Source: a virus. Taken from it: a stretch of DNA of 64,000 bases. Shown here piece by piece: positions 1,720 to 40,919 of this stretch. Under the pieces are notes generated by a model, which was not told where the DNA came from, did not search any database, and saw only the letters and a list, made by a program, of their open reading frames with translations. Made by a program: the position numbers and the translations under genes. Position 1 is the stretch's first letter, and every line of letters begins with the position of its first letter. The stretch spans positions 23,751 to 87,750 of IMG/VR virus record IMGVR_UViG_3300032308_002578; one strand, 5' to 3'.

Positions 1720-3385
1720 AAATTTTGTCCGGTCTGAATTTGAACTAACGGCAGAATTCACCGACGCAAAGTCCGGTGCGAGGAAAGCACTGTTTAAAGA
1801 CATCCTTTCGATTTCGGCTACGTTTGCGCTGAATTCAATTCCGGTTGCGTCCCTTGTGGTCGCGTGCGGGCGGAACGTGTCAGACAAGTCGCAGCCCGCC
1901 ACCATTGACGCCGCGCTAAAAGTGTTAAAGCCGCGCGACAAGGTCAAAGTTACGCTGACAATCAGGACAAACGACGGCGAGACAAGTTTAATGCCCGAGG
2001 GTCGCGGCGTAATTTTCGACGGGTATTACGCCGGTGCGGGCTATCAGCGGTCAAATAATTCGGTTAGTTATGCGCTGCATTTGATTCATTGGTTGGACGA
2101 TTTAAACTGCTCTTCCATGATCAACGGCAACTGGCACCCCGGCGTGCCGCACGATTTGGCGCAAGCCGCCAACTCTGACGTGGCGCTCATGCGCGGCGGT
2201 GCGGACTGGACAGGCAAGAATAAAGGTCTGACAAATCCCGTGCCGATTGTGGACGCGACAGGAAGCATTATTAATAAATCCAACATGCAAGATGATTTAT
2301 GGGAAAAAGTCCTCAAGCCCATGTTCAAAGAAATCGCGTCGTTCAGCCACCCCCGCGAGCAAAACTACGCGCGAGACAATAACCCGCTTACAAACGGCAA
2401 CAACGCGGCGGCATTACTGGCGCTGGAGCGCATGCCTGGCACGGCGCCTTTTCCGGGAAAACTGCCGCTCTTTATGGGCGGCGTAAACGCCAAGGCTATC
2501 GCTGACGGCGCAAACAAAGGGATTAGCGGTATCGCCAAAAACGGAATGGCCTACTCGTCATTCTGGAGCAAACTCGTCGGCGAATATGCGCCTGAATTTT
2601 TGTTTGCCGTGTCGCCGTGCCCTGAGTTTGCAAACGTTGTTCCGTTCTTTGGCGGTCTTCGTGGCTACTGGAAAGAGATCGACGGCCGGGAATATACCTA
2701 CGCGAATTTTGATTCCAACCTCGCGAGCCTTATTGAGTCGATCGAGATTCGGTATTCTCAAAAGGCCACGTCTAATTGGGCGCTTGGCGGCAGAGCCCCC
2801 GGGCTTTCATATTTCAGGCCGTGGGGTCGGTTTCCAAAAAAGAATAATGATCTCCGCGGCCAAATTATCGTAAAAGATCCGCCGGGTTGGCTGGCAAACG
2901 CTATTTCGCAGGGCGCATTCTCGCCACTGACGACCGGCTTTGGTCGACGCCTTGGCGACACTGCGTGCCCCGGCAAGGGCCCCGAAGATACGCCGGCGGG
3001 TGTGCTCCGCCCGGCGGACGCTGAAAAAGATGTAGAGAAATCGAACATCGTCAACATATTTTGCGAGCACTGGTACAAAACTGAAGTGCTCTCTAAGCGG
3101 TACGGTGAAATGTCTGGAAAGTTACGTTTTGACATTGCACCCGGCAGCATTGTCAAAATTAAAGAGCCAGATCTAAGCGCCGGTAGCGAACTCACGACAT
3201 ACGCCGCTGTCACGCATGTGTCATTTTTGATTAACACAGAGCAACACACAGCCGGCACGTCGTTTACACTATTAAATCTGCGGTCGGAACTTGAGAACAA
3301 CGACGATTTATTTACAAGCGCTGCGCCGCCCCTGTACCCGACCGCAAAGTGGGTTGGCGGGCCGCTGGTAAGAGGGTTATCCTGA
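1709..3385 (+). CDS. putative baseplate hub/tail protein (gp27/gpD-like, tentative)
   Basis: ATG ATG at 1709/1712; VIFDGY near the N-terminus and C-terminal G.LRFDIAPGSIVKI...VTHVSF resemble hub proteins; upstream of baseplate genes. Confidence 0.5.
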   Translation: MMAENFVRSEFELTAEFTDAKSGARKALFKDILSISATFALNSIPVASLVVACGRNVSDKSQPATIDAALKVLKPRDKVKVTLTIRTNDGETSLMPEGRGVIFDGYYAGAGYQRSNNSVSYALHLIHWLDDLNCSSMINGNWHPGVPHDLAQAANSDVALMRGGADWTGKNKGLTNPVPIVDATGSIINKSNMQDDLWEKVLKPMFKEIASFSHPREQNYARDNNPLTNGNNAAALLALERMPGTAPFPGKLPLFMGGVNAKAIADGANKGISGIAKNGMAYSSFWSKLVGEYAPEFLFAVSPCPEFANVVPFFGGLRGYWKEIDGREYTYANFDSNLASLIESIEIRYSQKATSNWALGGRAPGLSYFRPWGRFPKKNNDLRGQIIVKDPPGWLANAISQGAFSPLTTGFGRRLGDTACPGKGPEDTPAGVLRPADAEKDVEKSNIVNIFCEHWYKTEVLSKRYGEMSGKLRFDIAPGSIVKIKEPDLSAGSELTTYAAVTHVSFLINTEQHTAGTSFTLLNLRSELENNDDLFTSAAPPLYPTAKWVGGPLVRGLS

Positions 3386-4197
3386 TGCCAACACAGCCGC
3401 AACCAAAAGGTATGCCGTCTATCCTCGGTGACGTAGATGCGCCGTTCTCTGCCCCAACCCGGATTACCGGCGTTGCGGATGACTTCACGGACATTCACAC
3501 CCAGTGGCTGAAAAACAAGACGCCAGACACGAACACGCAACTGCTGAAACGCGTGCAGCCCGTGATCGACACGGCTGTCAGCAGTTACGGCGGCGCATCT
3601 TCCAGTCCTGTGTTTAAGTCGCGCGCGCGACTAATGGCGCTAAAAGCCATGGAGACGTACGACCCCAAGCGCGGTAACGTCAGAACACACCTCCTGTCGC
3701 AACTGCAGAGTCTCCGCCGCTTGTCCGCGCAGGAGCAGAACATCATTTCGATTCCGGAGCAGGTCGGGTTGGACTACCAGCGGCTCCACGCCGCCGAGAA
3801 CGAACTGCGCGACAGTCTTAGCCGCGACCCTAGTGACGAGGAACTGGCTGACGCCACGGGCCTGTCGATCAAGCGGCTGCGAAAAGTGCGCGCGTTTAAC
3901 CAGCCGATTGCGTCCGGTACCACAGTGCGCGAAACAGCCGAAGAAAACTACGACGGCGACATCGCTAGTTCTATCCCAAACCAGAACCGGTCAGCGGATG
4001 CGTGGCTGGATTTTGTATATGGCGATTTGACACCCACGGATCGGCTCGTTATGGACATGACGCTCGGCAGAAACGGCCGGAGGCGCGCCAGCACGCAAGA
4101 CATCGCGGCTCGTTTAAATATCACGCCGGGCGCTGTCAGCCAGCGCGCAGCCAAAATTCAGGCCATGATCGACAAAAGGTACGAGCACAATTTTTAA
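3385..4197 (+). CDS. RNA polymerase sigma-70 family factor (FliA/SigB-like architecture)
   Basis: Region 2 (ALKAMETYDPKRG), region 3 (LRDSLSRDPSDEELADATGLS), region 4 HTH (STQDIAARLNITPGAVSQR); TGATG coupling. Confidence 0.88.
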   Translation: MPTQPQPKGMPSILGDVDAPFSAPTRITGVADDFTDIHTQWLKNKTPDTNTQLLKRVQPVIDTAVSSYGGASSSPVFKSRARLMALKAMETYDPKRGNVRTHLLSQLQSLRRLSAQEQNIISIPEQVGLDYQRLHAAENELRDSLSRDPSDEELADATGLSIKRLRKVRAFNQPIASGTTVRETAEENYDGDIASSIPNQNRSADAWLDFVYGDLTPTDRLVMDMTLGRNGRRRASTQDIAARLNITPGAVSQRAAKIQAMIDKRYEHNF

Positions 4198-32120: not shown

Positions 32121-32447
32121 ATGAAGCGTCGTCGAAACCGGTATAACTCAGACCGCCAGCCGTTCAATCAAAACGATGATCTCGACGACGATTTCATCGA
32201 AGAGGAATGGCAATTTGTCGACGACGAGGATGACGACGACGAGGACGACTTTGATTTCGACAGCGGCCATAAAACCGACTGGTACATCCCCGACGACAAC
32301 GACGAAGATGAAGACGACGAAGACTACGAGGACGAAGATTACGAAAACGAAGACGACGACGCTGACGACGCCGCGTTTAACTGGGACGATGACGACGATG
32401 AGGACGACGACCCAGCGTACGAGGACAATTTCAACATAGACGAATAG
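32121..32447 (+). CDS. extremely acidic small protein
   Basis: Asp/Glu runs over most of 108 aa after a basic N-terminus. Confidence 0.65.
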   Translation: MKRRRNRYNSDRQPFNQNDDLDDDFIEEEWQFVDDEDDDDEDDFDFDSGHKTDWYIPDDNDEDEDDEDYEDEDYENEDDDADDAAFNWDDDDDEDDDPAYEDNFNIDE

Positions 32448-33918: not shown

Positions 33919-33953
33919 AAACCCGTGGCATGATTGCCGCGGGTTTTTTATTT
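33919..33953 (+). terminator. Rho-independent terminator
   Basis: AAACCCGTGGCA-TGAT-TGCCGCGGGTTT followed by TTTATTT. Confidence 0.8.
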
Positions 33954-34009
33954 ACACAATTAGTTTGCGTATGTGAGTGTTTTTAACAATAACTAACAAA
34001 GGAAAAGAC

Positions 34010-34768
34010 ATGGCAACCATGCTCAAGGGTTCGAAGAAGACGCAAGCCAAGGCCAAGACGACAAAGACTGCCGCCAAAGAGCACCTCGGCCCCGATGACG
34101 ATAAGGGCGATTTGGCAATTGCTGATCGCGTGGGCGTGACGATCACAGCGCCCAACTTCAAGACCGTGGAGATCACAATCCGCGGCACGGCGCCGTACGT
34201 GCAGTTGGCGTTCGGCAAGAAGGCGCGCGAAATGATGCGCGAGAAGCAGGCTGCCGGCTCGACCGCCGCCAAGGGCAAGAAGCGCGAAGCCAAGGACTTC
34301 GATGCGAACTTCAAGGAAGCCCAGCACGTCTCAACCAAGGGCTGGTGTGGCATCCCAGCCAGCGCCCTTCGTAACGCGCTGGTTGACTCCTGCGTGGTCG
34401 TGGGCTATCACAAGACCAAGGCGAAGAAGGCTATTTTCGTCGAGGCCGACGGTTTCGACGCTGTCGAAGGCACGCCGCTCATCCGGTTGTACAATGACGG
34501 CAAGGGTAAGTTGGTAGACGCCAAGCCGAAGCACGTCGAGCACACCGTTCGCAACGCGACCGGCGTTGCCGATATCCGTGTTCGAGCGATGTTTGAGCAG
34601 TGGCAGGCCAAGGTCCGCGTGCGTTTTGATGCCGACATGTTCACGCCGGCCGACATTGCCAATCTCATGCTGCGCGCTGGTATGCAAGTCGGAATCGGCG
34701 AAGGCCGCGCAGATTCGCCCAATTCGTGCGGTATGGGCTGGGGTCATTTCGAGTGCGTGAAGGGTTAA
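34010..34768 (+). CDS. stand-alone RAMP/Cas7-like RNA-binding protein
   Basis: First strand VEITIRGTAPY; GIPASALRNAL (cf. RAMP IPGSSLKGA); C-terminal Gly-rich loop GIGEGR...GMGWGHF; AAGGA RBS. Confidence 0.75.
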   Translation: MATMLKGSKKTQAKAKTTKTAAKEHLGPDDDKGDLAIADRVGVTITAPNFKTVEITIRGTAPYVQLAFGKKAREMMREKQAAGSTAAKGKKREAKDFDANFKEAQHVSTKGWCGIPASALRNALVDSCVVVGYHKTKAKKAIFVEADGFDAVEGTPLIRLYNDGKGKLVDAKPKHVEHTVRNATGVADIRVRAMFEQWQAKVRVRFDADMFTPADIANLMLRAGMQVGIGEGRADSPNSCGMGWGHFECVKG

Positions 34769-34787
34769 TTTAACAAGGAGAAATGTT

Positions 34788-35267
34788 ATGGGGCGTAAAC
34801 GGCAAATGTCTTCCATCAAGGAAGAACTGACGCAGATTTTTCAAAAGCACAACGGCAATCTTCCGCCCGAAGCCGTTGTCGAATTTGCGCGCAATAAAAA
34901 CACCGCGTTGCACGCAGAGTTTGAGTGGGATGATACAGAAGCGGCGCATCAGTTTCGGCTAGTGCAGGCACGAAATATCATCCGACTGAACATAGACATC
35001 GTCGAAACGCCCAACGGCAATGTTCGCGTTCCCGTGTATGTGTCGCTTGTTTCAGACCGACGCAGCGGCCTCGGCTACCGGGCGCTCACAGACGTCATGA
35101 GCGACGCCGACATGCGTGCTCAGTTATTGCAACAGGCGATCGACGAGTTGCAGCGAGTTCGGCGCAAGTATGAATCGCTGCGCGAATTGGCGCCTGTGTT
35201 CTCGGCTTTAGATCGCGTCGCCCGCAACGCCAGCAGGCGGCCAACACGTCGCGCCGCTCGGGCTTAA
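34788..35267 (+). CDS. accessory protein between the RAMP gene and the repeat array
   Basis: AAGGAG RBS; L.PEAVVEFAR....LH.EFEWDD.EAA..FRL.QAR.II pattern, common among phage hypothetical proteins. Confidence 0.8.
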   Translation: MGRKRQMSSIKEELTQIFQKHNGNLPPEAVVEFARNKNTALHAEFEWDDTEAAHQFRLVQARNIIRLNIDIVETPNGNVRVPVYVSLVSDRRSGLGYRALTDVMSDADMRAQLLQQAIDELQRVRRKYESLRELAPVFSALDRVARNASRRPTRRAARA

Positions 35268-35272
35268 ATATT

Positions 35273-35880
35273 TAGACACGGCAGGCTTGGCAGGGCAACG
35301 CTAGGCTCGGCTACGCACGGCGCGGATCGGCAGGCGTGGAATGACGCTGCTCGGTTCGGCATGCCTAGGCATGGGTCGTTTTGGCTTGGCAGGTATGGCA
35401 CGGCGAGGCGGGGCGACGAGCGGTGAGGTGTGGATAGCCAAGACTTGGTTCGGATCGGCAGGCTGGGTAAGGCACGGCGTGGACGCGCGAGCAGCGACAT
35501 GGCGAGGCAGGCAGAGCAAGGCACGGCATGCTTTGGTGAGGATCGGTGTCGCTTAGACATGGCAGGCACGGACAGGCAAGGCGCGCTTTGGTAGGGTTTG
35601 GCTCGGCAAGGCAGGCTAGGCACGGCTCGTCTCGACGCGGCCAGATAGGCTCGGCAGGCGAGGTATGGCAAGGCCGGGAGCGCCCCGGCCGGGATAGACA
35701 TGGCAGGAATGGCATGGCTGGGTTCGGCACGGCGCGGTACGGATGGGCTTTAGACATGGCAGGCGTGGACAGGCTAGGCGGGGAATGCCGGCGCGCGCAG
35801 ACGCATAGACACGGCAGGCAGGGTTAGGCAGGGCGAGGAGAGGCCGGGAGTGGCTCGGCAAATCACGGCAGGCTCGGAAT
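35273..35880 (+). repeat. non-coding 5-nt-period GGH-NN array, 11 segments delimited by GGCA|GG (candidate guide-RNA array)
   Basis: Phase-breaking GGCA at 35280, 35329, 35388, 35457, 35506, 35561, 35610, 35653, 35702, 35758, 35813, 35867; TAGACAYGGCAGG at 35273, 35554, 35695, 35751, 35806. Confidence 0.9.
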
Positions 35881-35890
35881 TACATAAATT

Positions 35891-35929
35891 AAACAGGGGG
35901 CGGTTATTAACGTAGCCGCCCCCTGTTTT
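35891..35929 (+). terminator. Rho-independent terminator closing the RAMP-array cassette
   Basis: AAACAGGGGGCGGTTA-loop-TAGCCGCCCCCTGTTTT. Confidence 0.85.
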
Positions 35930-37309: not shown

Positions 37310-37533
37310 TGGCGTTTCATGGAAAAGCCGGTGACCGCGTGCAGATGGTTTTCATGCCTAACGACCCCGAGCCTATTCCGGTTGGCACGACCGGCACCGT
37401 CGTTGGCGTTAACGATATGCCGTGGGGCCAAGATCGCATGACGCAGGTCATGGTCAAATGGGATAACGGCCGCAACCTGTCGTGCATCTGCCCGCCAGAC
37501 CATCTGGAAATCATTCCAGCCACGGCTGATTAG
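37306..37533 (+). CDS. DUF4314-like protein
   Basis: GDRV....M..DP.PIPVGTTGTV..V.D......V.WDNGR.L. Confidence 0.8.
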   Translation: MMAFHGKAGDRVQMVFMPNDPEPIPVGTTGTVVGVNDMPWGQDRMTQVMVKWDNGRNLSCICPPDHLEIIPATAD

Positions 37534-40500
37534 TATTGGAAGTAGCCGCTGCCAATAGCGTCGTCGGCCCAGTCTTCGCCCGGTGTCTGGGCGGCAACGG
37601 CCCGTTCCGTTACGCGGCCAATGCCGGCTAACTGCGCGAAGTTGGGCCACGCGTCGTTAATGTGCCACGCGGCGGCACAGCCAATATTGACAGCCTGCGC
37701 GAAGTCATCGCTGAGCAGCGTATTTCGCGTGATTGTATAAATGTCGCCGCCCATACGAGACTCGGCTTTGTTTTCCACCAGCGCCAAGAAGTCGGCGATA
37801 AGTCCGGGCGAGTCTTGCGACGCCCAATCGTATTGGAAGAACCTGATCTGTTTTAACTTAATCGCCTGACAGGTGTAGAGCAACGACCGGGTCTTATCAA
37901 GACTGTAATGGGCCCGGTGATTAATCGGCGTCGGCGGCTTGTAAATCATCAAGTCCTGCGCGGCCGACCGGACAAGCCGCAGAGCCAGCACCCGGTCTAA
38001 ATTAAAGCCAGCCTGCACCATGACTGTTTCGCGGACCGTGCCGGCACCGGTGTAATCGTGCGCGACAAAATCGCAATTAAACGTGTTCGACCACTTCATG
38101 CACTCAATGGCTTCGGCCAGATGGTCGCCGCCGATCAGCAGGCGTTTCGACCAAATAACATCGATAGTGCCGTCCGGCCGAAAACCAAGTACGGCTACGA
38201 CAGTAAACGAGATACCCTCTTCGCCACCGCCGCCCCAGTCGATGGCCAGAATCCGATGTTTGTACTCCTGCAGGTGTTGGAAGCATTTTGGGTTAGGTTC
38301 TTTCTTGTTCTCCCAGTCGAGTAAACACGCCGCGCGCAGTTCTGTCTCGCTGATCAATTTCTGCCCGGCGTCAACAGACTCGCCCAAAACTTCGTTGTAG
38401 AACTGCGCCTGCGTCATGTTGCCGTAGCCTTCGCGCTTGAGCAGCAGCGTGTTCCATTTCTCGGGATCTGAGAAATGCAACGGCAGAATTAACTGCGGCA
38501 CGTGATATCCGGCGAACTGCCAGCGGCGATCAGGGTGCCTGTGCACCCAACGTCCGTGCCGCGGGCTGATAGGCTTGCGACATTTCGCGCAAATTGTGCC
38601 CGGATTCTTTTCACTAATGTGAATATTAAACGGGCCAATAATAGCGTCGAGGTCATGGTCGATAGATGGAATGTTCCAATACTTACAAGAGCGGCACGGG
38701 ATAAACCATTCAGCCTGCGATGAACGTTTGTATAACCCCTCTAACGGGTTATCTACGGATTTTGGCGTTCCTGTGAAATGGCTAATGGCATAGCGTGAAT
38801 AACTCATCGTCTCTTGAATGATTGGAATATGATCCGGGTCCATGTCTTGAATTTCGTCAAGCGCGATACGGTCAGCAGACACACCGCGGACACGATCTGC
38901 GTCGAGCAGCGCGAACGAGAACAGCATTAACGACTTGTTCTTAAAGCTGCGCTGCAATACAGAATTCTCAGTATCGCTCCCCGCCCACTGCGACTTGATG
39001 GGCGACTGATCAATGAATGGGCGCACGTAGTTGTTCGAGAATCTGCGGATCTGCTCGTACAACGGCGTAACGTACAGAGTCTTGAAAAACGGAATCGAGT
39101 TCGCCACCACGATGCCGTGCGCCGCGAGCGAGGTTGAATTGTGATTTACAATACCGTCGACGACGTAATTGTGCTCGCCGCTGACTTCGATGTCCCAGCA
39201 CGGCAGCACGCCCAGCGGCTCGATCTTTTCGATTTTGTCCCAAATAATATCCGGACTTGCGAGCCGCTCTAGTTCTGAAAGTTTTGGATGTTCGGGACAA
39301 TGTTCTCGAAAATGCTCAATGTACTTTTTGAGTTTGGCGCGGGTCAACGCGTGCTTGGGTTTTAGACGCAGACCGCCGCTCAAAAGAGATTTGCCGTTTT
39401 GCGCCCAGCGAATACTCTCGGCAATCTCGCTGATTAATTCGCGAACTTCCAGCGGCACGGTGTCGCGGTTGTTGTTTTCAACCGCTTCAGGCAGCACTAC
39501 AGGCGGTTTTCCCGGCACTTGGAATTCATCAAGAAAACGACGCCAGCCATCTCTTGTTTCGACGTGCACGATGTACGCATCGTTGCAGTGTACGCGTGCG
39601 CCGTTTTTATCGCGGTAACCAGTTGGTCGGACTTTGATTGTGGCCGGAATGCCGAACTTTAACAGCATCGCTTTGATATCAAACGCCAGATCTCGCGATA
39701 TAGTGCAATATGTGATCGCTGGCGCCCGCTGCTTGCCGCTAGCGGGGCGGATCATACCATCCGTTGCCCATAAGCGGCTCAAAAACAGCGCGGCGTCACC
39801 GCGCGACAGATCAAAAACCCAATCGGGCAGGCTTTTTTCTAACGCGTTTTTACCGTACAGCCTGTCTTCTTCCAGCCAGCCGCGAATCACACCGCCACGA
39901 CTCTTTGAGATGTCGATACGTACGGCATTCGTTTTGACTTTGCTGACAAACGTAGCGGGGCTACCCTGCACACGCGTGATTACCCCGTTCACCTCGTTTA
40001 TCACTTCAGCGCTGTCTGTTGTAATATTAATTGCGTTAGTCACGCATCCGTCACCGATAAGATACGCCGTGATGATGATGCGATCACGATCCACGCGTCG
40101 ATCGCCGAACGTGCCGCCTTTACGCACTGCGCAGACGCGGTCGCCAACCCGTAAGTTCGCACCGGTTGTCCAGCCGCTGACTTTGAGTAATGGATGCGTG
40201 TCGGCCAGTTCGATCACGGCACCCGTTCGCGTCGTAACTCGGTAGACGTGCTTTCCTGAGTGCCGCGCGGTGTCGAGAACGCGTACAACTTTCGTGCGGT
40301 ACTGGTTGTCGATACCGAGAACAAAGTCGCCAATTTTAAGCTCATCGCCCCGAATTCGCCGACCATTTGCTAGCAACACTTTGTGTGTTGAACAAATGAC
40401 CAGACTTTTTGATAATTGACGCCCTGTTTTCCACACCTGATTCTTGGGTGTTAAAACGCGGAAAAGGGGCGAAAAAGGGTAGTGATTATTTAGACTGTAC

Positions 40501-40727
40501 GGGCGTCCATTAAGATTCAATACAAGCGGCAAAATTGGTTCCAACGACGGGAACGCATACTTACTGGCTAACTCACGCAGTATCGCGGTTCGTTCTTTAA
40601 CGGACTCTGGATCTGACGTGTCGACAGACAGTAGTTCATTGACCAGTCCTTTGATTCCCGTGTTAGGAATTTCAAGGGCTGGTGATTCGTGCGGGCTACC
40701 ATCCCGCATTATTTCTTCTGGTGCCAT
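37530..40727 (-). CDS. terL: terminase large subunit (GpA-like) with intein
   Basis: Walker A GRQLSK/ST split by the intein; Walker B RIALDEIQD; motif III GTP; CxxC...CxxC; nuclease LAIDWGGG and DDFAQA; start uncertain (40727 chosen). Confidence 0.85.
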   Translation of the reverse strand: MAPEEIMRDGSPHESPALEIPNTGIKGLVNELLSVDTSDPESVKERTAILRELASKYAFPSLEPILPLVLNLNGRPYSLNNHYPFSPLFRVLTPKNQVWKTGRQLSKSLVICSTHKVLLANGRRIRGDELKIGDFVLGIDNQYRTKVVRVLDTARHSGKHVYRVTTRTGAVIELADTHPLLKVSGWTTGANLRVGDRVCAVRKGGTFGDRRVDRDRIIITAYLIGDGCVTNAINITTDSAEVINEVNGVITRVQGSPATFVSKVKTNAVRIDISKSRGGVIRGWLEEDRLYGKNALEKSLPDWVFDLSRGDAALFLSRLWATDGMIRPASGKQRAPAITYCTISRDLAFDIKAMLLKFGIPATIKVRPTGYRDKNGARVHCNDAYIVHVETRDGWRRFLDEFQVPGKPPVVLPEAVENNNRDTVPLEVRELISEIAESIRWAQNGKSLLSGGLRLKPKHALTRAKLKKYIEHFREHCPEHPKLSELERLASPDIIWDKIEKIEPLGVLPCWDIEVSGEHNYVVDGIVNHNSTSLAAHGIVVANSIPFFKTLYVTPLYEQIRRFSNNYVRPFIDQSPIKSQWAGSDTENSVLQRSFKNKSLMLFSFALLDADRVRGVSADRIALDEIQDMDPDHIPIIQETMSYSRYAISHFTGTPKSVDNPLEGLYKRSSQAEWFIPCRSCKYWNIPSIDHDLDAIIGPFNIHISEKNPGTICAKCRKPISPRHGRWVHRHPDRRWQFAGYHVPQLILPLHFSDPEKWNTLLLKREGYGNMTQAQFYNEVLGESVDAGQKLISETELRAACLLDWENKKEPNPKCFQHLQEYKHRILAIDWGGGGEEGISFTVVAVLGFRPDGTIDVIWSKRLLIGGDHLAEAIECMKWSNTFNCDFVAHDYTGAGTVRETVMVQAGFNLDRVLALRLVRSAAQDLMIYKPPTPINHRAHYSLDKTRSLLYTCQAIKLKQIRFFQYDWASQDSPGLIADFLALVENKAESRMGGDIYTITRNTLLSDDFAQAVNIGCAAAWHINDAWPNFAQLAGIGRVTERAVAAQTPGEDWADDAIGSGYFQY
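39138..40406 (-). mobile_element. intein (423 aa) with LAGLIDADG homing endonuclease
   Basis: Starts SLV, block B DTHPLL, LAGLIDADG-like AYLIGDG and SRLWATDG, ends HNYVVDGIVNHN followed by Ser. Confidence 0.88.
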
Positions 40728-40919
40728 ATGGGTAAACGTGGTTTCAATCGTTCGTATCGACCCGGTCCTGATGACAACGAGTTGCAATGGCTCGAAGAGG
40801 GCATAAACATGCTCGTCCGGTTTGCCTTTTTCGGTATCGCCGGCATTCTACGCGGTACGTGCAAAATTGTCATCGGAATCATTTTGTTGCTGTACGGGGC
40901 CTGTACTCGACAGCGCTAA
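40728..40919 (+). CDS. small membrane protein
   Basis: 63 aa with hydrophobic C-terminal half. Confidence 0.5.
   Translation: MGKRGFNRSYRPGPDDNELQWLEEGINMLVRFAFFGIAGILRGTCKIVIGIILLLYGACTRQR

What the first reader, a model, noticed from the sequence alone, without database searches (positions are those of the whole stretch)
33919..35929. Self-contained RAMP/Cas7-like + accessory gene + pentamer-coded array: candidate non-CRISPR RNA-guided system
Seen: a terminator (33919-33953), an AT-rich gap, a 252-aa gene, a 159-aa gene, a ~600-bp repeat array starting 6 bp after the stop, then a strong terminator (35891-35929). This reads as one transcription unit. Known: the first protein carries the RAMP hallmarks of class 1 CRISPR backbone proteins (first beta-strand I.G..P, IP.S.L..AL, C-terminal Gly-rich loop), which polymerise along RNA at a fixed nucleotide step. 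No cas1/cas2/cas3/cas10 and no repeat-spacer array occur in the window. Inference: subunits each bind one 5-nt unit, gripping the constant GG(C/T/A) and displaying the variable NN for target pairing, giving a programmable phage-encoded system against rival phages/MGEs or host genes. I recall recent descriptions of viral RAMP + GGY/NN systems (VIPR-type) but cannot verify that match here.
Basis: partly seen in the sequence, partly recalled or inferred. Interest (0 to 1): 0.96.

Follow-up and report, generated by a model that had tools for sequence, protein, structure and literature searches.

The report
VIPR guide-RNA system in lake phage
This is a phage-borne VIPR system, a recently described CRISPR-like relative in which a small Cas7-like protein reads a five-letter-repeat RNA to find DNA, so it is a further member of a known kind, not a new one.

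Summary

This is a VIPR system, described in 2026 bioRxiv preprints (10.64898/2026.04.26.720920 and two companion papers).
- The 252-aa protein folds as a Cas7/Csm3-type RAMP.
- Its family profile finds the solved 'SUSP1 Vipr protein' as the best PDB hit (E 2e-6; hhalign 95.3%).
- Of 80 related viral loci, 71 keep the accessory gene and 72 keep a same-strand downstream pentamer array.

The locus differs from the characterised SUSP1 type:
- the guides have no 3' tail;
- 12 junctions of the form GGC|AGGC shift the register by -1, which fits the preprint's 'staggered array';
- the third repeat letter is C, A or T;
- the accessory protein is unrelated to vap1.

I found no natural target and no RNA data. 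I could not assign the type (I-VII) because the supplements are closed. Verdict: new member of a known kind, moderate interest.

The parts
33919..33953 (+). Intrinsic terminator of the upstream gene; marks the 5' boundary of the unit
   Evidence: 12-bp stem at 33919-33946 followed by a T run
33954..34009 (+). AT-rich leader with a ribosome-binding site (AAAGGA) before the ATG. The promoter is presumed to lie here but was not identified.
   Evidence: Sequence read. No sigma-70-type match here.
34010..34768 (+). vipr: 252-aa Vipr-family RAMP protein. It has a disordered Lys/Ala-rich N-terminal extension (residues 1-45), an RRM core and a G-loop (GIGEGR...GMGWG, residues 228-245).
   Evidence: AF2 model pLDDT 80. 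Foldseek PDB top hits are all Cas7/Csm3/Cmr4 (best E 3.5e-5). Profile hit to 36pp_D 'SUSP1 Vipr protein' at E 2e-6. hhalign 95.3%. phrog_4652 at E 2.8e-16 and no Pfam match.
34788..35267 (+). vap-like accessory gene: 159 aa with a FEWDD motif. The predicted fold is helix/beta-hairpin, possibly winged-helix-like, plus a C-terminal helical hairpin. Its function is unknown.
   Evidence: phrog_15946 at E 1.1e-25. A homologue lies within 3 kb of vipr in 71 of 80 related viral loci. AF2 pLDDT 90.8. No PDB match at E<=1e-3. Unrelated to SUSP1 vap1 (hhalign 0.2%).
35273..35880 (+). vrRNA array: 109 pentamer units (NN-GG-H) in about 12 segments. The segments are separated by 12 GGC|AGGH junctions that shift the register by -1 (a staggered array). 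Five copies of TAGACAYGGCAGG start at 35273, 35554, 35695, 35751 and 35806.
35282..35331 (+). Segment v1: 10 units, 8 with GG
35331..35390 (+). Segment v2: 12 units, 8 with GG
35390..35459 (+). Segment v3: 14 units, 11 with GG. The first 10 NN are the same as in relative L002.
35459..35508 (+). Segment v4: 10 units, 7 with GG. Identical in L002.
35508..35547 (+). Segment v5: 8 units, 6 with GG. Identical in L002. It is followed by a degenerate stretch and a TAGACATGG restart.
35563..35612 (+). Segment v6: 10 units, 9 with GG
35612..35655 (+). Segment v7: 6 units, 4 with GG, plus a 2-unit fragment at 35646-35655
35655..35704 (+). Segment v8: 10 units, 8 with GG
35704..35748 (+). Segment v9: 9 units, all with GG
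35760..35784 (+). Segment v10: 5 clean units, then degenerate units. The next unit (35785-35789) reads as a GG unit in contigs of two other runs.
   Evidence: One search shows 35788 C>G in runs X3 and X5.
35815..35869 (+). Segment v11: 11 units, 10 with GG. The first 8 variable NN are the same as in L002.
35869..35878 (+). Segment v12: a 2-unit stub before the terminator
35891..35929 (+). Strong intrinsic terminator; marks the 3' boundary of the unit
   Evidence: 17-bp hairpin, -30.8 kcal/mol, z -7.2, followed by UUUU

Best explanation
The locus is a VIPR (Viral Interference Programmable Repeat) system carried by an uncultured freshwater phage of about 200 kb.

Shown here:
- a Vipr-family RAMP gene, a small accessory gene and a same-strand array of NN-GG-H pentamers lie between two terminators;
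- this three-part arrangement is conserved across a large, mostly viral clade;
- the array is cut into guide-sized segments (median 10 units) by a conserved 4-nt unit, C-A-GG, that shifts the register by -1.

Inferred from the characterised SUSP1 system:
- the unit is transcribed as one RNA;
- Vipr protomers bind one pentamer each, holding GG and the third base and exposing the two variable bases;
- each filament pairs with double-stranded DNA by the rule 'two bases read, one skipped' and silences transcription of a competing phage, satellite or prophage.

My own inference: the 4-nt junction interrupts the protomer-per-5-nt lattice and so sets the filament and guide boundaries, taking the place of the 3' tail and pseudoknot that SUSP1 vrRNAs carry.
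For: Fold and sequence:
- The AF2 model (pLDDT 80) matches only Cas7-type RAMPs at the top of the PDB search: type VII Cas7, Csm3 and Cmr4, 46 matches at E<=1e-3, best 3.5e-5.
- A 66-sequence profile finds 36pp_D 'SUSP1 Vipr protein' as the best of 177,635 PDB sequences (E 2e-6; next hit E 0.14).
- hhalign to SUSP1 Vipr, translated from KT454805.2, gives 95.3% and E 2.2e-8.
- By the alignment, SUSP1 RNA contacts R138, D177 and R179 correspond to R192, E231 and R233. All three are invariant in A1.

Array:
- The array has 12 GGCAGGH junctions, 7 of 11 spacings being 4 mod 5.

Conservation:
- Of 80 IMG/VR loci, 71 hold the accessory homologue and 72 hold downstream + strand pentamer runs. The - strand has at most 3 runs per locus.
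- In 131 loci, 297 of 314 abutting phase changes are -1, and 244 of those 297 begin with CAGGC.
- Of 610 junction spacings, 445 are 4 mod 5. The median segment is 10 units and 76% fall within 9-16, the range the preprint gives.
- The preprint's fig. S18 legend describes staggered arrays with 1-nt overlaps.

Other support:
- No self-target rises above the shuffled null, as the preprint reports for its own systems.
- By my mapping of the 11 array differences seen in other lake metagenome contigs, none destroys an intact GG and two restore one.
- The same system occurs in Cyanophage Cy-LDV1 and Mycobacterium phage Saal.
Against: - No RNA evidence exists. No listed run is on record as RNA, so transcription, processing and binding are all inferred.
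- No natural target was found by any search.
- The sequence link to SUSP1 Vipr covers only the C-terminal 55-110 columns.
- The Foldseek TM-scores are low, 0.27-0.41 normalised to the query, with rmsd 7-14 A.
- The stacking residue W178 of SUSP1 aligns with an invariant Gly (G232), and the H17 equivalent is uncertain.
- 20 of 109 units lack GG, and 16 of 89 read GGA. A GGY>GGA change was among the GGY substitutions tested in SUSP1 (fig. S12 legend), and the text says that perturbing the GGY motifs abolished silencing. The array could therefore be partly decayed, or this clade's pocket may differ.
- The accessory protein has no detectable relation to vap1 and no assignable fold.
- The preprint says only the ribozyme-interspersed and single-vrRNA architectures were confirmed by sRNA-seq. 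Staggered arrays were not.
Confidence: 0.87

Rival explanations
1. The array is a structural nucleic-acid element, not a set of guides. GG every 5 nt could form two-tetrad G-quadruplexes in DNA or RNA, and the RAMP-like protein would then be a general binder of G-rich RNA or DNA.
For: G makes up 42.6% of the array and GG recurs at 5-nt spacing. No target was found for any guide.
Against: - The two bases between the GGH triplets are hypervariable, with 15 of 16 dinucleotides used, while GG is conserved across 131 loci.
- Segment lengths cluster at 9-12 units.
- The protein is homologous to a Vipr shown to use such repeats as guides.
- A G-quadruplex needs neither a -1 junction nor a fixed partner gene.
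Confidence: 0.04
2. The locus is a decayed or orphaned VIPR remnant. The protein genes are intact, but the array has lost function: many units are degenerate and no target exists.
For: 20 of 109 units lack GG. Runs of three degenerate units sit inside v4, and v10 breaks off after 5 units. No targets were found.
Against: - The degenerate units in v3, v4 and v5 are identical in relative L002, whose Vipr is only 84% identical. That argues for constraint.
- Population variants avoid intact GG.
- Segments v9 and v11 are clean.
Confidence: 0.07
3. The region 35264-35757 codes for protein on the minus strand (ORFs of 145 and 130 aa), and the periodicity is a by-product.
For: Open frames exist at 35264-35701 and 35365-35757 on the - strand.
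Against: - A 5-nt period with -1 register shifts does not fit a codon period.
- The ORF products have no Pfam or PHROG family. The only hit is a sub-threshold one at E 0.066.
- The region is G-rich on the + strand, which leaves long stop-free frames.
- Homologous arrays differ in length and content.
Confidence: 0.01

Closest known systems
Type II VIPR of Escherichia phage SUSP1 and the Pseudomonas fulva prophage (bioRxiv 10.64898/2026.04.26.720920 and 10.64898/2026.04.26.720927)
   Same: - A small Vipr RAMP gene followed by a small accessory gene and a downstream same-strand array of 5-nt GG repeats with hypervariable NN.
- About 9-16 units per guide.
- Phage-borne, without cas1, cas2 or a CRISPR array.
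- No self-targeting.
- RNA-contact residues R138, D177 and R179 are conserved here as R192, E231 and R233.
   Different: - The Vipr proteins are only distantly related (single-sequence E 0.89; profile E 2e-6).
- This one has a 45-residue basic N-terminal extension.
- SUSP1 guides read NNGGT and each ends in a roughly 40-nt conserved tail (seen directly). Here there is no tail, GGC dominates, GGA is tolerated, and guides abut through a 4-nt C-A-GG unit.
- The accessory protein is not homologous to vap1.
'Staggered vrRNA arrays' of the same preprint (fig. S18; only the legend was seen)
   Same: According to the legend, adjacent vrRNAs derive from positions that overlap by 1 nt, so the end of one marks the start of the next. 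That is exactly the -1 register shift found here and in 297 of 314 phase changes across the clade.
   Different: I could not see the figure, its example locus or the type it belongs to, so identity with this clade is inferred from the legend alone. The preprint's text implies this architecture was not confirmed by sRNA-seq.
Class 1 CRISPR backbone proteins (Cas7 family: Csm3, Cmr4, type VII Cas7)
   Same: RRM-based RAMP fold with a Gly-rich loop. All the top Foldseek matches are of this kind. Both polymerise along a guide RNA at a fixed step; for this protein that is inferred.
   Different: There is no repeat-spacer array, no cas1/cas2 and no other cas genes nearby. The step is 5 nt with 2 read bases, against 6 nt with 5 read bases in Class 1 CRISPR (established knowledge). 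Guides are genome-encoded, with no known acquisition machinery.
TIGR-Tas (tandem interspaced guide RNA systems)
   Same: Another compact, non-CRISPR RNA-guided system with short-period arrays. It is named beside VIPR in 10.64898/2026.10.21.760802 (passages seen).
   Different: Its period is 18 nt, not 5. Its effector, by my recollection, is a Nop-domain protein and not a RAMP; no call tested this.

Membership tests
VIPR | Vipr protein with a RAMP fold (RRM core, G-loop, thumb) | tested here: met
   AF2 model pLDDT 80. The listed top rows of the PDB Foldseek search are all Cas7/Csm3/Cmr4 chains (46 matches at E<=1e-3). The Gly-rich loop 228-245 has invariant G228, G230, G232, R233, G241 and G245. 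I did not inspect the thumb separately. TM-scores are low (0.27-0.41).
VIPR | Sequence homology to an experimentally characterised Vipr | tested here: met
   The profile of 66 relatives hits 36pp_D 'SUSP1 Vipr protein' at E 2e-6 as the best PDB hit. hhalign gives 95.3%, E 2.2e-8, over 55 columns, and 88.6% over 110 columns with the narrower profile.
VIPR | GGY-contacting residues of SUSP1 Vipr (H17, R138, D177, W178, R179) | tested here: inconclusive
   By the alignment, R138=R192, D177=E231 and R179=R233, all invariant in A1. W178 aligns with invariant G232. The H17 equivalent is uncertain because the N-terminal alignment is weak.
VIPR | Adjacent same-strand tandem YNNGG repeats, at least 4 units (the preprint's calling rule) | tested here: met
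   8 runs of 4-9 consecutive units in the array, against a shuffle mean of 0.52 and 0 of 1000 shuffles reaching 8. 89 of 109 units carry GG.
VIPR | Third repeat letter is a pyrimidine (GGY) | tested here: not met
   The counts are C 58, T 14, A 16, G 1, so the consensus is GGH. The preprint allows 'a related consensus', including NNNGG repeats. This therefore argues against the type II consensus, not against the family.
VIPR | 9-16 repeats per vrRNA | tested here: met
   Window segments have 5-14 units. Across the clade the median is 10 units and 76% fall within 9-16.
VIPR | Accessory vap gene next to vipr | tested here: met
   A 159-aa gene follows vipr. Its homologue lies within 3 kb in 71 of 80 related loci. 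Which of vap1-6 it is could not be told: it is not vap1 and the supplements are closed.
VIPR | No cas1/cas2 and no CRISPR array; viral genome context | tested here: met
   No Cas1 or Cas2 match in the 87,750-bp virus record. No CRISPR-like row in TRF. Cas3 and Cas10 were not searched, and the record is estimated to be 43% complete.
VIPR | vrRNAs expressed and bound by Vipr | not testable with these tools
   No run on record as RNA holds the stretch.
VIPR | Natural targets that match NN with a 1-nt skip (at least 80% of NN), and none in the phage's own genome | tested here: inconclusive
   No self-match above the shuffled null, as expected. No external target was found either. The few exact hits are in unrelated sequences at chance frequency.
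Type II VIPR (SUSP1-like) | Each vrRNA ends in a conserved structured 3' tail (pseudoknot), and the accessory gene is vap1 | tested here: not met
   SUSP1 guides show the tail. Here the segments abut with no tail. There is no Rfam match and no hammerhead. Accessory protein against vap1: hhalign 0.2%.
CRISPR-Cas class 1 | Repeat-spacer array plus cas1/cas2 and further cas genes | tested here: not met
   The array period is 5 nt, not 60-79 nt.

The most novel reading that the evidence does not exclude
In this large clade, guide boundaries may be written into the RNA by a single 4-nt unit (C-A-GG). This unit throws the one-protomer-per-5-nt lattice out of register, so one transcript would sort itself into about a dozen separate Vipr filaments. 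No 3' tail, ribozyme or dedicated processing enzyme would be needed. A relaxed third-base pocket (GGH, not GGY) goes with it. If so, it is a new way to punctuate a multi-guide RNA. The preprints name the staggered layout but, as far as their text shows, have not tested it.
Probability: 0.3. Interest if true: 0.55.

Novelty: new member of a known kind. Interest (0 to 1): 0.35.

Why it matters
VIPR is a very recent discovery, proposed to predate CRISPR. This locus adds a clean example from an uncultured freshwater phage of about 200 kb.

It also shows that the tail-less staggered layout is the rule in a clade of thousands of proteins: 4098 at E<=1e-3, and 2001 cluster representatives. The clade spans many bacterial phyla.

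The same layout occurs in culturable phages, namely Mycobacterium phage Saal and its relatives and Cyanophage Cy-LDV1. They offer a bench system for asking how staggered arrays are processed and what they target. The locus itself does not change the picture drawn by the preprints.

Tried and rejected
Target searches, all by the published rule of NN joined by one wildcard. None gave a credible target.
- Own 87.7-kb record: the best scores equal the shuffled-guide null.
- 80 related loci, 488 kb: the same.
- Complete 198-kb genome of the nearest relative, and that relative's guides against this record and against its own genome: the same.
- IMG/VR exact scans: v11 with 20 specified bases gave 0 hits, and v9 with 18 gave 0.
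- The v11 core with 16 specified bases gave 10 hits. These are 4 unrelated sequences in different frames, which I judge to be chance.
- v4 with 18 specified bases gave 2 hits. One lies in frame in a 679-aa ORF of an AT-rich 148-kb contig, and I judge it to be chance.
- v3 with 26 specified bases and up to 3 mismatches: 0 of 3 genomes holding the nearest Vipr and 0 of 401 genomes of the phylum of G001.
- Metagenome exact scan of the first 10 units of v3: 1 hit. It is in frame, but the next units do not match, and about one chance hit was expected by my rough estimate.
- One Saal guide in IMG/VR: 0 hits.
- Exact-match scans miss the 80-99% matches that the preprint accepts.

RNA evidence: no RNA holder is listed. 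The contigs laid are DNA only.

Accessory protein:
- no match above threshold in Pfam, no NCBIfam or PADLOC match;
- no PDB fold match at E<=1e-3, and the weak top rows are winged-helix regulators;
- BFVD returns only uncharacterised phage proteins;
- the Atlas returns only 'hypothetical protein' viral clusters.

Other checks:
- Rfam: nothing on the array and no hammerhead.
- Minus-strand coding of the array: rejected.
- VIPR type I-VII: cannot be assigned. The tree, the type table (Data S4), the list of 664 loci and figs S16-S18 are in supplements or images that I could not see. They may already contain this clade or even this phage lineage.

Papers, and what I saw of each:
- 10.64898/2026.04.26.720920: outline, Results, Discussion, Methods sections 18, 20, 26 and 27, and passages including the supplementary figure legends.
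- 10.64898/2026.04.26.720927: outline and abstract, sections 5 and 6.
- 10.64898/2026.10.15.759431: outline and abstract, section 17.
- 10.64898/2026.10.21.760802: passages only.
- Searches for other literature.
Full report
**What is there**

The window is part of an IMG/VR virus record of 87,750 bp, estimated 43% complete. Its nearest relative is a complete 198,312-bp phage with terminal repeats.

A compact unit lies between a terminator at 33919-33946 and a 17-bp terminator hairpin at about 35891-35929 (-30.8 kcal/mol, z -7.2). It holds a 252-aa ORF (34010-34768), a 159-aa ORF (34788-35267) and, 6 nt after the stop, a 608-nt G-rich array (35273-35880).

The array's 5-nt period is real:
- 8 of the window's 9 runs of at least 4 consecutive NNGG pentamers lie in the array on the + strand, and none lies on the - strand;
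- 1000 dinucleotide-preserving shuffles of the array give a mean of 0.52 such runs and never reach 8;
- 60 of 93 GG-to-GG distances are 5 nt;
- 89 of 109 parsed units carry GG, the fifth letter is C 58, A 16, T 14, G 1, and 15 of 16 dinucleotides occur at the variable pair.

**What it is**

The founding paper (10.64898/2026.04.26.720920; Results, Discussion and four Methods sections read) describes VIPR systems. They comprise a small Vipr RAMP protein, usually one accessory gene (vap), and vrRNAs of 9-16 YNNGG repeats, and they occur mostly in phages. The NN pairs read double-stranded DNA with one base skipped per unit, and binding silences transcription of competing elements.

The structural companion (10.64898/2026.04.26.720927; sections 5 and 6 read) shows one protomer per repeat. 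GG and Y are held by the RRM sheet, thumb and G-loop.

**Membership tests**

- Pfam, NCBIfam and PADLOC do not know the 252-aa protein. PHROGs places it in phrog_4652, a family of unknown function.
- The AlphaFold model (pLDDT 80) finds only Cas7-type RAMPs at the top of the PDB: type VII Cas7, Csm3 and Cmr4, 46 matches at E<=1e-3. TM-scores are low, 0.27-0.41.
- The single sequence barely touches the solved 'SUSP1 Vipr protein' (36pp_D, E 0.89). A 40-sequence profile gives E 0.0046. A 66-sequence profile of diverse relatives gives E 2e-6, with the next hit at 0.14.
- I fetched phage SUSP1 (KT454805.2) and translated its vipr and vap1. hhalign gives 88.6% over 110 columns and 95.3% over 55 columns.
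- In that alignment, SUSP1's RNA contacts R138, D177 and R179 fall on R192, E231 and R233, all invariant in the close clade. W178 falls on an invariant glycine, and the H17 equivalent is unclear.

**Conservation of the arrangement**

The family is large: 4098 proteins at E<=1e-3 and 2001 representatives of 50%-identity clusters.

In 80 related IMG/VR loci:
- 71 hold a homologue of the 159-aa protein within 3 kb;
- 72 hold + strand pentamer runs downstream of vipr;
- 7 of the remaining 8 hold upstream runs on the + strand (6 of them two or more);
- the - strand has at most 3 runs per locus.

Genome hits come mostly from metagenome-assembled genomes of many phyla. The nearest is a Planctomycetaceae MAG at 70% identity. 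That is a hint to the host, not proof.

Two named phages carry the same trio:
- Cyanophage Cy-LDV1, with g34, g33 and two arrays;
- Mycobacterium phage Saal, with an array, then gp51 and gp52. At least 26 further mycobacteriophage records hold a Vipr homologue.

**How this locus differs from the characterised type**

A register-tracking parse shows that the array is not one lattice. Twelve times the sequence GGC|AGGH inserts a 4-nt unit, so that the next run of pentamers starts one base early.

The same junction rules the whole clade:
- in 131 loci, 297 of 314 abutting phase changes are -1, and 244 of those begin with CAGGC;
- 445 of 610 junction spacings are 4 mod 5;
- the commonest spacings are 49, 54, 44 and 59 nt, the median segment is 10 units, and 76% fall within 9-16.

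This fits the legend of the preprint's fig. [quoted passage not shown] I could not see the figure itself.

SUSP1's own guides, parsed the same way, are NNGGT runs that each end in a conserved tail of about 40 nt. Here there is no tail, and no Rfam family or hammerhead.

The accessory protein is unrelated to vap1 (hhalign 0.2%). Its confident model (pLDDT 90.8) matches nothing solved at E<=1e-3. The weak top rows are winged-helix regulators, and BFVD and the Atlas return only uncharacterised phage proteins.

GGA units are as common as GGT. In SUSP1, a GGY>GGA change was among the GGY substitutions tested (fig. S12 legend), and the text says that perturbing the GGY motifs abolished silencing. 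This clade's third-base pocket therefore probably differs, or those units are inactive.

**Array turnover**

- The nearest relative (L002, Vipr 84% identical) shares segments v3 (first 10 NN), v4, v5, v7, v8 and v11 (first 8 NN), including their degenerate units. Other segments differ.
- A 13-nt motif, TAGACAYGGCAGG, occurs five times in the array and nowhere else in the window. It marks the array start and four internal restarts.
- In a contig of another lake study, 163 nt of the array (35587-35751) are replaced by 85 other letters, and the right-hand breakpoint lies at one of these restarts. This is a single contig at depth 4.7.
- By my mapping of 11 single-letter differences in the array, five lie at NN, two at the third letter (C>T), one in a degenerate unit, and two turn degenerate units back into GG units. 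None destroys an intact GG.

**Targets**

Using the published rule, I found no target. I searched:
- the phage's own record;
- 80 related loci;
- the complete genome of the nearest relative;
- IMG/VR (exact patterns);
- one metagenome scan;
- 401 genomes of the phylum that holds the nearest genomic Vipr.

The few exact hits are unrelated sequences at about chance frequency. The absence of self-targets agrees with the preprint.

**Verdict**

The locus is a VIPR system of the tail-less staggered-array kind, in an uncultured freshwater phage.

The kind is already in print. A fourth preprint even catalogues 99 VIPR-like array clusters (10.64898/2026.10.21.760802, passages seen). I therefore rate this a new member of a known kind.

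Still open, and testable in the mycobacteriophage or cyanophage members:
- how staggered arrays are cut into guides;
- whether the 4-nt junction is itself the punctuation;
- what the FEWDD accessory protein does;
- what these guides target.

Noticed in passing
L159 (Mycobacterium phage Saal, NC_023580.1) locus 2097-3549: The well-studied Cheoctovirus mycobacteriophages carry the same system. A staggered GGC array lies upstream of gp51 (the Vipr homologue, 31% identical), and gp52 is a homologue of the accessory protein (32%, E 1e-14). The trio sits beside the immunity repressor, antirepressor and excisionase genes. The annotated start of gp51 overlaps the end of the array, so its N-terminus may be over-called.
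   Followed up: partly
L158 (Cyanophage Cy-LDV1, BK059895.1) locus 2528-4118: This temperate cyanophage has g34 (Vipr homologue, 49% identical), then a staggered array, then g33 (accessory homologue, 38%), then a second staggered array. The set lies between the cI-like repressor and the excisionase.
   Followed up: partly
window 35587-35751: In one contig of a 2015 freshwater metagenome (run X5), 163 nt of the array are replaced by 85 other letters. One breakpoint lies at a TAGACATGG restart, which suggests cassette-like exchange of guides between populations. This is a single contig at depth 4.7.
   Followed up: no
window 37530-40787 (- strand): A 1085-aa ORF reads like a large terminase interrupted by an intein-like insert. 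I judged this from the translation only, and no tool was run on it.
   Followed up: no
window 32121-32447 (+ strand): A 108-aa ORF made almost wholly of Asp and Glu runs. It could be a DNA mimic or a similar acidic protein. Seen and not examined.
   Followed up: no
window 35360-35383: A small terminator-like hairpin (CATGCCTAGGCATG followed by a T-rich run) lies inside segment v2 of the array. It could attenuate read-through into later guides.
   Followed up: no
window 34010-34144 (Vipr residues 1-45): A Lys/Ala/Thr-rich, low-confidence N-terminal extension. Only the closest relatives have it, and most homologues align from about residue 43. It may be a non-specific nucleic-acid-binding tail.
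   Followed up: no
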